The translations under genes were made by a program, and so were the position numbers. A stretch of DNA of 18,664 nt, from the NCBI RefSeq assembly GCF_003334255.1, contig NZ_QOWU01000073.1; one strand, 5' to 3'. The notes under the pieces were generated by a model. The model had not been told where the DNA came from and made no database searches. It worked only from the letters and a program-made list of their open reading frames with translations. This DNA comes from Escherichia coli (GTDB lineage Bacteria > Pseudomonadota > Gammaproteobacteria > Enterobacterales > Enterobacteriaceae). Position 1 is the stretch's first letter. Each line of letters begins with the position of its first letter. Below, one piece after another: positions 10,378 through 11,435 of this stretch.

Positions 10378-11435
10378 CAGAGCGTGAACTGTCCATTATC
10401 CGTGCGCTGGGTGAAGAATTCGCTGCGGTGCTGGCGGATTTACAGCGTACATTTGAGGGGAAAATAGCCGCGCAGGCACAAATGTTTGAAGAAAAACTGG
10501 CTTCCCTGTCTGTGGTATTACAGAAGTGCGTGACGGGCGATGATGTGCGTCCGATGCTTGAGCAGATGATGAAGGAGGCTGTAAGCCATATTCCTGTTCC
10601 GCGTGATGGTCGTGACTACGATCCGGATGTTCTGCAGAAGGCGGTGAATGATGCGGTCGCAAATATTCCGCAGCCAGCGGACGGTAAAAGTCTCACCCCG
10701 GATGATGTGCGTCCGATGCTTGAACAGATGGTGAAGGAGGCGGTAAGCCATATCCCTGTTCCGCGTGACGGTCGTGACTACGATCCGGAAGTACTGCAGA
10801 AGGCGGTGAATGATGCGGTCGCAAATATTCCTGTACCGGCGAACGGTAAAAGTATCACTCCCGATGATGTGCGTCCGATGCTTGAGCAGATGGTGAAGGA
10901 GGCGGTAAGCCATATTCCTGTTCCGCGCGACGGTCGTGACTACGATCCGGATGTTCTGCAGAAGGCGGTTCTGGATGCGGTGAGTGCCCTGCCGGCTCCG
11001 CAGGACGGGCGTGATGCCACGGCACTGGAAATACTCCCCGCCATTGACGATCAAAAATCCTTTCCCCGGGGCACGTATGCCACACACCAGGGCGGACTCT
11101 GGCGGGCGTATGAAAAAACGCACGGGATGCGGGGATGGGAATGCCTGGTTGACGGGGTGGCGGATATTGACGTCAGCATGACGGGTGAGCGGTTGTTCTC
11201 TGTGGTGGTCCGGCAGAGCAGTGGCCAGCGTACGGAAAAAATATTTTCCCTGCCGGTGATGCTCTACCGCGGTGTGTTCAGAGCCGGTGAAACCTACCAC
11301 CCCGGCGATACGGTGACGTGGGGGGGCTCGCTGTGGCACTGCAACAGTATGACCGAAGATAAACCCGGAGAAGCTCATTCATCAGCCTGGACCCTGGCTG
11401 CAAAACGTGGGCGGGATGCAGGAGGTGGAAAGTGA
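10374..11435 (+). CDS. Head-module protein of unknown function with tandem 54-aa repeats, 353 aa
   Basis: ATGA overlap with the portal stop. Contains about 2.7 tandem copies of DDVRPMLEQMVKEAVSHIPVPRDGRDYDP(D/E)VLQKAVNDAVANIP.P.(D/N)GKS.TP. C-terminal ~120 aa are unique. Confidence 0.6.
   Translation: MTERELSIIRALGEEFAAVLADLQRTFEGKIAAQAQMFEEKLASLSVVLQKCVTGDDVRPMLEQMMKEAVSHIPVPRDGRDYDPDVLQKAVNDAVANIPQPADGKSLTPDDVRPMLEQMVKEAVSHIPVPRDGRDYDPEVLQKAVNDAVANIPVPANGKSITPDDVRPMLEQMVKEAVSHIPVPRDGRDYDPDVLQKAVLDAVSALPAPQDGRDATALEILPAIDDQKSFPRGTYATHQGGLWRAYEKTHGMRGWECLVDGVADIDVSMTGERLFSVVVRQSSGQRTEKIFSLPVMLYRGVFRAGETYHPGDTVTWGGSLWHCNSMTEDKPGEAHSSAWTLAAKRGRDAGGGK
10539..10970 (+). repeat. Tandem direct repeat, 162-bp unit, about 2.7 copies, in-frame within CDS 10374..11435
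   Basis: Copies start at 10539, 10701 and 10863 (GATGATGTGCGTCCGATGCTTGA...). Copies 1 and 2 are roughly 90 percent identical by eye. Copy 3 diverges after about 108 bp. Confidence 0.85.

What the first reader, a model, noticed from the sequence alone, without database searches (positions are those of the whole stretch)
10539..10970. Recent in-frame tandem triplication (162-bp unit) inside a head-module gene
Two full copies and one partial copy of a 54-aa unit are about 90 percent identical at the DNA level, implying recent duplication and likely copy-number variation by recombination. The repeat unit and the unique C-terminal domain have no function I can assign. The location between portal and connector genes suggests a minor head or decoration protein. 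The antisense strand yields a long pseudo-ORF for the same reason.
Basis: seen in the sequence. Interest (0 to 1): 0.5.

Follow-up and report, generated by a model that had tools for sequence, protein, structure and literature searches.

The report
Variable-repeat partner protein of phage portal
The tandem repeat is real and lies in a gene tightly coupled to the phage portal gene (and fused to it in many relatives); it encodes an uncharacterised, widespread head-module protein whose repeat number varies from 1 to 7 among E. coli prophages.

Summary
The repeat is confirmed: three in-frame 162-nt units at 10539-11024 (identity to unit 1: 90% and 79%), far above chance.

It lies in ORF 10374-11435, here called X. 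The portal gene's stop overlaps X's start (ATGA).

X is not a decoration gene. In about 40% of E. coli relatives one extra G in a G-run (G5 here, 10358-10362) fuses X to the portal C-terminus, as in the 859-aa 'portal' of phage 2851. The split form is canonical. Salmonella phage FSL SP-016 has it, and so do all 72 diverse viral loci with enough upstream sequence, where a portal gene abuts X.

X belongs to a large uncharacterised family (5736 clusters at 50% identity). Its parts are:
- an N-terminal long helix;
- a variable run of ~27-aa 'helix + IPxPxDG' modules;
- a conserved C-terminal tandem chitin-binding-like (CBM5/12) domain.

Among relatives the array holds 1-7 units, often with 100% identical neighbours. 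The window's own units are old paralogues, not a recent private triplication. Both split and fused forms are under purifying selection (dN/dS about 0.2-0.3).

Best reading: a portal-associated minor head protein with a length-tolerant spacer. Its location and ligand are inferred, not shown.

The parts
9013..10377 (+). HK97-family portal gene (454 aa), ending ...AVKAMFRGILRK* with its TGA stop overlapping the start codon of the next gene
   Evidence: PHROG 2271 (positions 1-451 of an 859-position profile) and PHROG 12 portal. It aligns with solved portals 9lbn_H and HK97 8cez up to about residue 421. Translation.
10358..10362 (+). G5 run inside the portal codons AGG GGG. It is Shine-Dalgarno-like, 11 nt upstream of the ATG of X. 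One extra G (G6) in relatives fuses portal and X into one ORF.
   Evidence: Window has CAGGGGGAT; phages 2851 and 705R7 have CAGGGGGGAT. Across 106 sequences, 62 are G5 and 44 are G6. The two states are interleaved on a tree of the flanks. The homologous site in other genera is AGAGGA or AGGGGA with no run.
10374..11435 (+). Gene X (353 aa), the portal-coupled repeat protein. Its start ATG forms ATGA with the portal stop, and its own stop overlaps the GTG start of the Ad1 adaptor gene.
   Evidence: ORF list and translation. PHROG 1289 full length and PHROG 2271 positions 562-859. 5736 homologous 50%-identity clusters. dN/dS 0.17-0.30.
10380..10520 (+). N-terminal long alpha-helix of X (aa 3-49), the inferred portal-docking or oligomerisation element
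   Evidence: AlphaFold2 helix 3-49 with pLDDT 90-96. It directly follows the portal C-terminus in natural fusions.
10539..10700 (+). Repeat unit 1 (54 aa, made of two 27-aa helix-loop modules)
   Evidence: Best match elsewhere is 98% (L077 unit 1).
10701..10862 (+). Repeat unit 2
   Evidence: 90% identical to unit 1. Best match elsewhere is 98% (L077 unit 3).
10863..11024 (+). Repeat unit 3. The first 108 nt are conserved and the last 54 nt are diverged (terminal module ...VLDAVSALPAPQDGRDATA).
   Evidence: 79% identical to unit 1. Breakdown. 99% identical to the terminal units of other prophages.
11025..11408 (+). Conserved C-terminal beta domain (aa 218-345), a tandem CBM5/12 (chitin-binding-domain-like) fold
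10518..11378 (-). Antisense 286-aa ORF, not a gene
   Evidence: Listed. Comparable antisense stop-free stretches occur in distant homologues, which is a composition effect. The sense frame carries all homology and the purifying selection.
11432..11758 (+). Head-tail adaptor Ad1 (gp6-like), the downstream neighbour coupled by a GTGA overlap
   Evidence: PHROG 40. Sequence.

Best explanation
The repeat array is the variable spacer of a separate gene, X (10374-11435). The portal gene's stop overlaps X's start (ATGA), which suggests coupled translation. X encodes a portal-associated minor head protein from a large, uncharacterised family.

Shown:
- X has three parts: an N-terminal ~47-residue helix; a run of acidic ~27-aa 'short helix + Pro/Gly/Asp loop' modules (six here, making three 54-aa units); and a highly conserved C-terminal tandem chitin-binding-like domain.
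- The gene lies immediately after an HK97-type portal gene, with start and stop overlapping or within a few nucleotides, in every relative where upstream sequence was available.
- A one-base change in a G-run (G5 to G6) fuses X to the portal C-terminus in about 40% of E. coli relatives. A second lineage carries an independent fusion.
- Both split and fused forms evolve under purifying selection.
- Unit number varies from 1 to 7 through ongoing duplication and deletion.

Inferred:
- X is made in roughly portal-like amounts.
- Its N-terminal helix docks on or next to the portal's C-terminal (crown) end, which faces the capsid interior.
- The repeat region is a length-tolerant, flexible spacer.
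- The C-terminal domain binds a conserved ligand, either a beta-1,4 glycan such as the peptidoglycan backbone or a conserved virion partner.

By gene position the closest functional analogue is the SPP1 gp7/MuF class of portal-bound internal head proteins. The window shows the ancestral two-gene arrangement, not a pseudogene.
For: Repeat and ORF.

Fusion in relatives:
- Phage 2851 has an 859-aa portal and phage 705R7 a 778-aa portal, both containing X.
- The only difference at the junction is G5 versus G6.
- Across 106 sequences, 62 are G5 and 44 are G6. The states are interleaved on the flank tree, and two haplotypes with identical flanks carry both states.

The split state is canonical:
- Salmonella phage FSL SP-016 ends its portal ...AMIRGFLTK* with an ATGA overlap and has no G-run.
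- A Rhizobium phage and three metagenomic relatives have portal followed directly by X.
- In all 72 diverse IMG/VR loci with enough upstream sequence, a portal homologue ends at X's start. The overlaps are -4 (42 loci), -8 (9), -14 (14), -17 (3) and -20 (1); two further loci have gaps of +1 and +10 nt; one outlier shows an apparent 321-nt gap. None of the 77 loci in which X was found is fused.

Independent fusion: P0129 (1237 aa, portal part 45% identical) occurs on 4 contigs from separate samples.

Viability of the fused form: plaque-forming phage phi330, grown on a K-12 host, carries G6 (PMC12502783).

Selection: dN/dS is 0.17-0.30 in both the G5 and G6 sets, for both the N-terminal region and the C-terminal domain.

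Architecture:
- AlphaFold2 model.
- CBM5/12 by Pfam and by fold search.
- The repeat region is acidic across the family.

Copy number: 1-7 units, with 100% identical neighbours in several relatives.

Portal topology: the canonical portal fold ends near residue 421 of 454. That the C-terminal crown lies inside the capsid is established knowledge of portal structures (HK97, P22, SPP1, T4).

MuF analogy: muf genes lie immediately downstream of portal genes, and SPP1 gp7 binds the portal (PMC5576092).
Against: - There is no direct evidence that X is in virions. No proteomics or structure was found.
- The domain repertoire looks more like an external lectin-type fibre than an internal protein. It includes a chitin-binding-like fold also seen in phage fibre and baseplate proteins, and collagen-like GxY tails in 7 of 106 family members.
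- Spacer length ranges about ten-fold across the family, from 220 to more than 1200 aa. That is easier to accommodate outside a capsid.
- Fusions are rare outside E. coli: 2 lineages among 150 cluster representatives and none among the 77 viral loci in which X was found.
- In EHEC genomes, co-resident prophages could complement a defective fused portal. The median is 5 matching places per genome.
- The phi330 deposit contains several obvious frameshift errors, so its exact protein products are uncertain.
Confidence: 0.55

Rival explanations
1. X is an external, trimeric, lectin-like fibre (neck whisker or head fibre) attached near the portal vertex. The repeats form a segmented coiled-coil shaft, and the C-terminal domain binds surface glycans.
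For: - CBM5/12 fold, with matches to phage 7-7-1 tail fibre, Milano baseplate proteins and a CIS baseplate protein.
- Collagen triple-helix tails in some family members.
- Alternating short helices and Pro/Gly loops.
- Very wide range of shaft lengths across the family.
- Gene position next to the neck genes.
Against: - In-frame fusion to the portal C-terminus, which lies inside the capsid, arose in two independent lineages. One of these is common and occurs in viable phages.
- The C-terminal domain is unusually conserved across hosts from alpha-, beta- and gamma-proteobacteria: 23 nearly invariant residues and 55-66% identity among sixteen C-terminal domains from 50%-identity cluster representatives. 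Receptor-binding tips are normally hypervariable.
- The window protein has no collagen tail.
Confidence: 0.2
2. X is an assembly-only core or scaffold factor anchored on the portal. It helps this head module build its elongated (prolate) capsid and is removed or degraded at maturation.
For: - Phages with this head module are reported with prolate heads: Sakai particles 44 x 95 nm (PMC2669165); Pankowvirus phiSTEC799-Stx2c 43 x 86 nm (PMC12029490); Salmonella PhiESI 40 x 89 nm, which shares 51% coverage at 97% identity with SP-016.
- X is coupled or fused to the interior end of the portal.
- X is mostly helical and acidic, like scaffolds.
- From my own knowledge: T4 prohead core genes 67 and 68 lie next to portal gene 20 and affect head length.
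Against: - phi330 (same genus, 5 units) was described as isometric, about 55 nm.
- Unit number shows no relation to genome length over 59 phage records (rho 0.06, p 0.67). An earlier rho of 0.62 with n=30 did not hold.
- 1-7 units occur in near-identical head modules.
- A scaffold role does not explain a conserved chitin-binding-like domain.
Confidence: 0.1
3. The G-run is a recoding or phase-variation site. Ribosomal or polymerase slippage, or heritable G5/G6 switching, makes both free and portal-tethered X as a regulated pair of products.
For: - Both states are frequent and are interleaved among lineages, and two haplotypes with identical flanks carry both.
- From sequence inspection: a -1 slip of tRNA-Gly on G GGG G in the G5 form would give exactly the FRGDT... 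junction seen in fused proteins.
Against: - The run is not conserved outside the E. coli lineage (AGAGGA or AGGGGA in 72 other loci).
- There is no canonical X XXY YYZ heptamer in the zero frame, and no downstream structure was sought or seen.
- The ATGA overlap already explains expression of X.
- Some G5/G6 differences between identical haplotypes could be homopolymer sequencing errors.
Confidence: 0.07
4. One reading: a capsid decoration protein carrying a recent private triplication.
For: The gene lies in the head module and has repeats.
Against: - X is coupled to the portal gene rather than the capsid gene in all relatives with upstream sequence and is fused to the portal in many.
- Apart from the weak CBM_5_12 match, no Pfam family reached E<=0.001 in the window protein, so no known decoration family was detected.
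- The window's units are older than the split between prophage lineages.
Confidence: 0.04
5. An artefact: the portal/X split is a sequencing frameshift or a decaying pseudogene, and/or the repeat number is an assembly error.
For: - Some database records annotate 'portal protein (pseudogene)' at this locus.
- Many database entries for this protein are N-terminally partial fragments that begin inside the repeats, so repeats of this size may break short-read assemblies.
Against: - The split state with ATGA overlap is the family norm.
- X is intact and under purifying selection in G5 lineages.
- Three units is a common natural allele.
Confidence: 0.04

Closest known systems
SPP1 gp7 / MuF-family minor head proteins
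   Same: The gene lies immediately downstream of the portal gene. The protein binds the portal and resides in the head in low copy number. The C-terminal region is variable (PMC5576092).
   Different: X has no MuF domain: there was no PF04233 or PF06152 hit in the window protein or in 106 family members. Instead, its N-terminal element is a single long helix, followed by a tandem-repeat spacer and a chitin-binding-like domain. Portal binding and virion location of X are untested.
P22-type portal C-terminal barrel (a helical extension of the portal into the capsid)
   Same: A helical polypeptide follows the portal crown. In fused relatives X is literally a C-terminal extension of the portal, starting with a ~47-residue helix.
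   Different: The P22 barrel is part of the portal chain and is a single long coiled coil. X is normally a separate, translationally coupled protein with repeats and a globular beta domain. There is no sequence similarity.
CBM family 5/12 chitin-binding domains (e.g. Bacillus circulans ChiA1 ChBD, Serratia ChiB, the Vibrio chitin deacetylase tandem CBM12)
   Same: Sequence motif Y-x-x-G-D-x-V-x-W/Y-x-G-x-x-W/Y and the same small beta fold, present twice in tandem.
   Different: X is in a phage head module rather than a secreted glycoside hydrolase. The Pfam match is weak in the window protein (E 0.004). The ligand is unknown. The conserved Cys residues (GWEC, WHC) are family-specific.
Segmented fibrous phage proteins and collectin-like lectins (T4 fibritin; collagen-containing tail fibres)
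   Same: An N-terminal coiled-coil-like helix, short helical segments interrupted by loops, GxY tails in some family members, and a C-terminal carbohydrate-binding-type domain.
   Different: Trimerisation and an external location are not shown. Fusion to the interior end of the portal argues against a purely external fibre.
Variable-number tandem repeats in phage structural genes (e.g. BACON-domain repeats in crAss-like phages, PMC6949934)
   Same: In-frame repeats whose number changes by recombination between near-identical units.
   Different: Here the unit is a 54-aa pair of helix-loop modules, not a folded domain, and the gene is the portal's coupled partner.

Membership tests
HK97-family portal protein (Pfam PF04860), the name databases give to X | Contains the portal fold (clip, stem, wing, crown) | tested here: not met
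   X has no Phage_portal hit. The portal fold is entirely in the upstream ORF and ends near residue 421 of 454. blastp of the portal against 150 X-family representatives hits only the two fused proteins. The 'portal protein' names on X come from fused E. coli entries.
Portal-coupled repeat protein family (PHROG 1289 / C-terminal half of PHROG 2271) | Full-length match to the family profile | tested here: met
   PHROG 1289: E 8e-179, residues 1-353 on profile positions 1-331. PHROG 2271: positions 562-859. 5736 clusters with E<=1e-3.
Portal-coupled repeat protein family (PHROG 1289 / C-terminal half of PHROG 2271) | Gene immediately downstream of, and overlapping, an HK97-type portal gene | tested here: met
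   ATGA overlap at 10374-10377 in the window. The same adjacency holds in all 72 viral loci with upstream sequence and in 5 further relatives.
CBM family 5/12 (PF02839) | Significant match to the Pfam profile | tested here: inconclusive
   Window protein: E 0.004 over residues 303-325 only. Family: 24 of 106 members at E<=1e-3 and 74 of 106 at E<=0.1.
CBM family 5/12 (PF02839) | Small three-stranded beta fold superposable on solved chitin-binding domains | tested here: met
CBM family 5/12 (PF02839) | Binds chitin or a related beta-1,4 glycan through exposed aromatic residues | not testable with these tools
   Aromatic positions (F300, W316, W322, W339 and their first-half counterparts) are conserved in the family. 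Binding needs biochemistry.
MuF / SPP1 gp7 minor head proteins | MuF domain (PF04233 or PF06152) | tested here: not met
   No hit in the window protein or in 106 family members.
MuF / SPP1 gp7 minor head proteins | Gene directly downstream of the portal gene | tested here: met
   The criterion is as described in PMC5576092.
MuF / SPP1 gp7 minor head proteins | Binds the portal and is packaged in the head | not testable with these tools
   Only indirect support: natural fusions to the portal C-terminus.
Collagen-like trimeric phage fibre | Run of GxY triplets long enough for a triple helix | tested here: not met
   The window protein ends ...KRGRDAGGGK. Pfam Collagen hits 7 of 106 relatives at E<=1e-3, but not this protein.
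Programmed -1 ribosomal frameshift site | Conserved slippery heptamer X XXY YYZ in the zero frame at the junction | tested here: not met
   The zero frame reads TTC AGG GGG ATA. The G-run is absent in other genera.
   Apart from the weak CBM_5_12 match, no Pfam family reached E<=0.001, and the significant PHROG hits are portal-annotated or unannotated families, so no known decoration family was detected. Linkage is to the portal gene. Stoichiometry itself was not measured.

The most novel reading that the evidence does not exclude
X is a portal-anchored internal core protein that makes this head module build a prolate rather than an isometric capsid. It would be a symmetry-breaking, length-related element sitting on the portal axis. 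Natural alleles with 1-7 units, and the free-versus-portal-fused forms, would then be ready-made variants for testing how prolate head length is set. The evidence leaves this open. Phages with this module are repeatedly reported as prolate, and X is coupled or fused to the interior end of the portal. However, unit number does not track genome size, and one relative was described as isometric.
Probability: 0.08. Interest if true: 0.8.

Novelty: new variant of a known kind. Interest (0 to 1): 0.45.

Why it matters
- Annotation. Thousands of database entries call this protein 'phage portal protein' or 'gp6-like connector' only because some E. coli alleles are fused to the portal. It is a distinct, uncharacterised family that is always coupled to HK97-type portal genes.
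- Assembly and typing. The 162-nt array (1-7 copies) and the G5/G6 junction are likely sources of assembly breaks, of 'pseudogene' calls, and of length polymorphism in Shiga-toxin prophages. This matters for prophage typing and for judging which EHEC prophages are intact.
- Biology. A portal-tethered protein with a chitin-binding-like head and a freely variable spacer has no described counterpart in well-studied siphophages. The natural split and fused alleles, and the copy-number series, make its role directly testable, whether that role is portal accessory, ejected protein, fibre or prolate-head factor.

Tried and rejected
- Named families. NCBIfam gave no hit. Pfam gave only a weak CBM_5_12 match. 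PDB sequence searches with the protein and with a family profile found only chitin-binding domains, plus designed helical-repeat proteins matching the repeat periodicity. I treat the latter as compositional.
- 'Split portal means pseudogene or sequencing error'. Rejected after finding the same ATGA-coupled split in Salmonella phage SP-016 and in 72 diverse loci, and purifying selection in G5 lineages.
- Programmed frameshifting at the G-run. The run is not conserved outside E. coli and there is no canonical heptamer. Kept only as a low-probability rival.
- Head-length ruler tuned to genome size. A first sample of 30 phage records gave rho 0.62. With 59 records rho fell to 0.06, and 4-unit arrays span 43.8-62.1 kb. 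Rejected.
- Fusion of X to the downstream gp6-like adaptor, suggested by 'gp6-like connector' names in Klebsiella. Those proteins are N-terminally truncated fragments that end at the normal X C-terminus. Rejected.
- Virion proteomics for phi330. The paper and its supplement report peptide maps only for the podoviruses.
- Papers on phage 2851 and BP-4795 morphology are not in the library. A search for the Rhizobium phage found nothing.
- The search for related loci with the full-length alignment failed for lack of conserved stretches. It worked with a C-domain alignment.
- I did not use the second structure job. The tool returns no contacts or PAE, so a portal-X docking model could not have been evaluated.
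Full report
OBSERVATION

The window carries a head-to-tail array with a 162-nt period. Tandem Repeats Finder gives 10538-10969, 2.7 copies, 92% matches and no indels. The repeat finder places three in-register copies at 10539-10700, 10701-10862 and 10863-11024, with 100/90/79% identity to copy 1. The period is exactly 54 codons and is in frame with ORF 10374-11435 (353 aa).

Identity at lag 162 is 0.92, against 0.32 +/- 0.02 for codon shuffles of the same ORF. This is not chance.

Units 1 and 2 differ at 16 nt, giving 9 synonymous and 5 non-synonymous codon changes. Unit 3 keeps the first 108 nt and diverges in the last 54 nt. Each unit consists of two ~27-aa modules, a short amphipathic helix followed by I/L-P-x-P-x-D/N-G-(K/R)-D/S.

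Equally long antisense stop-free stretches occur in distant homologues, so it is a by-product of composition.

WHAT THE GENE IS

The neighbourhood is a siphophage late region. In order it holds:
- endolysin, Rz spanin and an HNH endonuclease;
- terS and terL;
- a fused S78-type protease and major capsid protein (645 aa);
- a small ORF;
- an HK97-family portal (9013-10377);
- the repeat gene, which I call X;
- the Ad1 adaptor, Hc1, Neck1 and the tail terminator;
- the major tail protein, the G/GT chaperones and the tape measure.

The key fact is that X is the C-terminal half of the 'portal protein' in close relatives. Phage 2851 has an 859-aa portal and vB_EcoS-705R7 a 778-aa one, both reading ...AVKAMFRGDTEKMTERELSII... 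straight through. PHROG 2271 is an 859-position 'portal' profile. The upstream ORF matches its positions 1-451 and X matches positions 562-859.

The only difference at the junction is a G-run. The window has CAGGGGGAT (G5, 10358-10362) and the fused relatives have G6. With G5 the portal ends ...MFRGILRK*, and its TGA overlaps X's ATG (ATGA).

WHICH STATE IS NORMAL

A scan of IMG/VR for the junction found 103 loci. Together with the two phage records and the window, 62 sequences are G5 (split) and 44 are G6 (fused). The states are interleaved on a tree of the flanks, and two haplotypes with identical 600-nt flanks contain both. The run has therefore changed length several times, although a few cases may be homopolymer sequencing errors.

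Outside this E. coli lineage the split is the rule:
- Salmonella phage FSL SP-016 has portal ...AMIRGFLTK* with the same ATGA overlap and AGAGGAT instead of a G-run.
- A Rhizobium phage and three metagenomic relatives have portal followed directly by X.
- In 80 diverse viral loci found with a C-domain profile, all 72 with enough upstream DNA have a portal homologue ending at X's start. The overlaps are -4 (42 loci), -8 (9), -14 (14), -17 (3) and -20 (1). Two further loci have gaps of +1 and +10 nt, and one outlier shows an apparent 321-nt gap. None of the 77 loci in which X was found is fused.

The window thus shows the ancestral, translationally coupled two-gene arrangement. The G-run is a lineage-specific version of a Shine-Dalgarno-like AGAGGA that lies inside the portal's ...RG... 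codons, and G6 is a derived insertion.

Fusion has nevertheless happened at least twice. P0129 (1237 aa) joins a 45%-identical portal to X through a different linker, and the identical protein occurs on four contigs from separate samples.

The fused allele is present in phages reported as viable. Phage phi330 forms plaques on a K-12 derivative and carries G6, although its deposited sequence has several evident frameshift errors.

dN/dS is 0.17-0.30 for both the N-terminal region and the C-terminal domain, within both the G5 and the G6 sets. X is therefore maintained in both configurations.

THE FAMILY AND ITS ARCHITECTURE

X has 5736 homologous clusters at 50% identity (E<=1e-3; 613 at E<=1e-30). 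Nearly all are stand-alone proteins of roughly 220-860 aa.

AFDB matches come from Enterobacterales, Pseudomonas, Variovorax, Paracidovorax, Caballeronia/Paraburkholderia, Billgrantia and Mesorhizobium. Their only names are 'phage portal protein', 'gp6-like head-tail connector', 'carbohydrate binding domain protein' and 'collagen triple helix repeat-containing protein'. NCBIfam has no model. I found no characterised member.

AlphaFold2, run with a 106-sequence alignment, gives three regions:
- A helix at residues 3-49, with pLDDT 90-96.
- Six short helices of 13-18 residues separated by 11-12-residue loops, with pLDDT 55-77. Their mutual arrangement is not predicted.
- A beta domain at residues 220-345, with pLDDT about 98.

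The beta domain is a tandem CBM5/12 (chitin-binding-domain) fold:
- Pfam CBM_5_12 hits 24 of 106 members at E<=1e-3 and 74 of 106 at E<=0.1. The window protein itself scores only E 0.004.

Twenty-three positions are nearly invariant across the family. The repeat region is acidic across the family, at about -7 charges per 100 residues. Some members end in GxY collagen-like tails (7 of 106 at E<=1e-3). The window protein does not.

DYNAMICS OF THE ARRAY

Among 62 intact E. coli-lineage genes, a count that includes the window itself, the extension is 245, 299, 353, 405/407, 461, 515 or 569 aa long. That corresponds to 1 unit (2 genes), 2 (2), 3 (16), 4 (35), 5 (5), 6 (1) or 7 (1). These lengths occur in both G5 and G6 backgrounds.

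Several relatives have 100% identical neighbouring units; L003 has four in a row.

The window's own units are not recent copies of each other. Each has a 96-99% match in other prophages, against 90% and 78% to its neighbours. The window looks like the 5-unit array of L077 without units 2 and 4.

MECHANISM: WHAT IS SHOWN AND WHAT IS INFERRED

Shown:
- X is adjacent to and overlaps the portal gene.
- Recurrent in-frame fusions to the portal C-terminus exist.
- Selection acts in both the split and fused states.
- The three-part architecture is as described above.
- Spacer length is free to vary.

Established knowledge: in all solved portals the C-terminal crown faces the capsid interior. By alignment to 9lbn and HK97 8cez, the canonical fold here ends near residue 421 of 454.

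Inferred: X is made in portal-like amounts. Its N-terminal helix sits at the portal's C-terminal end. The repeats act as a length-tolerant spacer. The C-terminal domain binds a conserved ligand.

The very high conservation of that domain across hosts with unrelated surface glycans argues against a host-specific receptor. It fits a universal ligand, such as the chitin-like peptidoglycan backbone, or a conserved virion partner.

The nearest functional precedent by position is SPP1 gp7/MuF. Those genes lie immediately downstream of portal genes, and gp7 binds the portal inside the head (PMC5576092). X has no MuF domain.

I put 0.55 on 'portal-associated minor head protein with a variable spacer'. 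Within that, the interior location is the weaker step.

The main rival (0.2) is an external lectin-like fibre. The domain repertoire and the ten-fold range of spacer lengths favour it, but the portal fusions contradict it.

THE PROLATE-HEAD LEAD

Phages with this head module are repeatedly described as prolate:
- Sakai lambdoid particles, 44 x 95 nm (PMC2669165).
- Pankowvirus phiSTEC799-Stx2c, 43 x 86 nm (PMC12029490).
- Salmonella PhiESI, 40 x 89 nm, related to SP-016.

A portal-anchored axial protein with a variable repeat is an obvious candidate for a length-related core.

I tested the simplest version, in which unit number tracks genome size. Thirty records gave rho 0.62. With 59 records rho was 0.06 (p 0.67), and 4-unit arrays occur in phages of 43.8-62.1 kb. 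In addition, phi330 (5 units) was described as isometric.

A genome-tuned ruler is therefore rejected. A role in making the head prolate at all remains possible but unsupported (about 0.08).

VERDICT

'Recent triplication' and 'decoration protein' are not supported.

The feature is the polymorphic spacer of an uncharacterised, widespread, portal-coupled protein that databases mislabel as 'portal protein'. In kind it is ordinary: a variable-number tandem repeat in a phage structural gene.

Three points raise its interest. The gene is strictly coupled to the portal. A one-base G-run change toggles it between split and fused forms. It carries a chitin-binding-like head of unknown ligand. These make it a moderately interesting and directly testable target.

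Noticed in passing
window 11768-12118 and 12094-12561: The head-closure (Hc1) and Neck1 ORFs overlap by 25 nt. They match the two halves (positions 1-98 and 110-264) of a single 264-position PHROG family (phrog_23409). This suggests another adjacent gene pair that exists as one fused ORF in some phages, like portal and X.
   Followed up: no
window 13652-14074 and 14098-14379: The two tail-chaperone ORFs both map onto one 224-position PHROG profile (phrog_14766, positions 2-122 and 133-224). This is the pattern expected for a lambda G/GT-type programmed frameshift pair upstream of the tape measure gene. I did not search for the slippery site.
   Followed up: no
window 5022-5075: A 27-nt tandem duplication (AAAAGGGGATACCGCGAAAAAAGCGGC, 2.0 copies, 85% matches) lies near the 3' end of terS, just upstream of the terL start at 5139. 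Its meaning is unknown.
   Followed up: no
window 12969-13685: The C-terminal half of the major tail protein (aa ~121-237) matches Hoc-like/Ig-like decoration families (phrog_2973, phrog_4069). The tail tube therefore probably carries an Ig-like domain.
   Followed up: no
L108 7588-8163; L110 5920-8186 (distant relatives of X): In two metagenomic relatives, the genes just downstream of X encode methyltransferases, an MptE/Maf-like protein and a hexapeptide-repeat transferase, all within the head-neck module. This may be a virion-protein modification or glycosylation cassette.
   Followed up: no
L111 (phage phi330, PV189401.1) 3810-8807: The deposited, manually Sanger-sequenced phi330 genome splits several essential genes by frameshifts: the portal linker, X, Neck1 and the major tail protein. 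The phage nevertheless forms plaques, so these are probably sequencing errors, and its annotation of this region should not be trusted.
   Followed up: partly
database entries for X homologues: Many entries are N-terminally partial proteins that begin inside the repeats, which suggests the array commonly breaks short-read assemblies. Names such as 'phage portal protein' and 'phage gp6-like head-tail connector protein' are applied to proteins that contain neither domain.
   Followed up: partly
phage records (e.g. LC727891, LC727876, AP012536): Eighteen records show a span in X about 110 nt longer than the 3-unit query. This is not a multiple of 162 nt, so array length may also change by partial units, or these arrays carry a further indel. 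Not resolved.
   Followed up: no
window 8846-9067: A 73-aa ORF of unknown function (phrog_829) lies between the capsid and portal genes and overlaps the portal start by 55 nt. A small ORF at this position is conserved in SP-016 and in the P0129 lineage.
   Followed up: no
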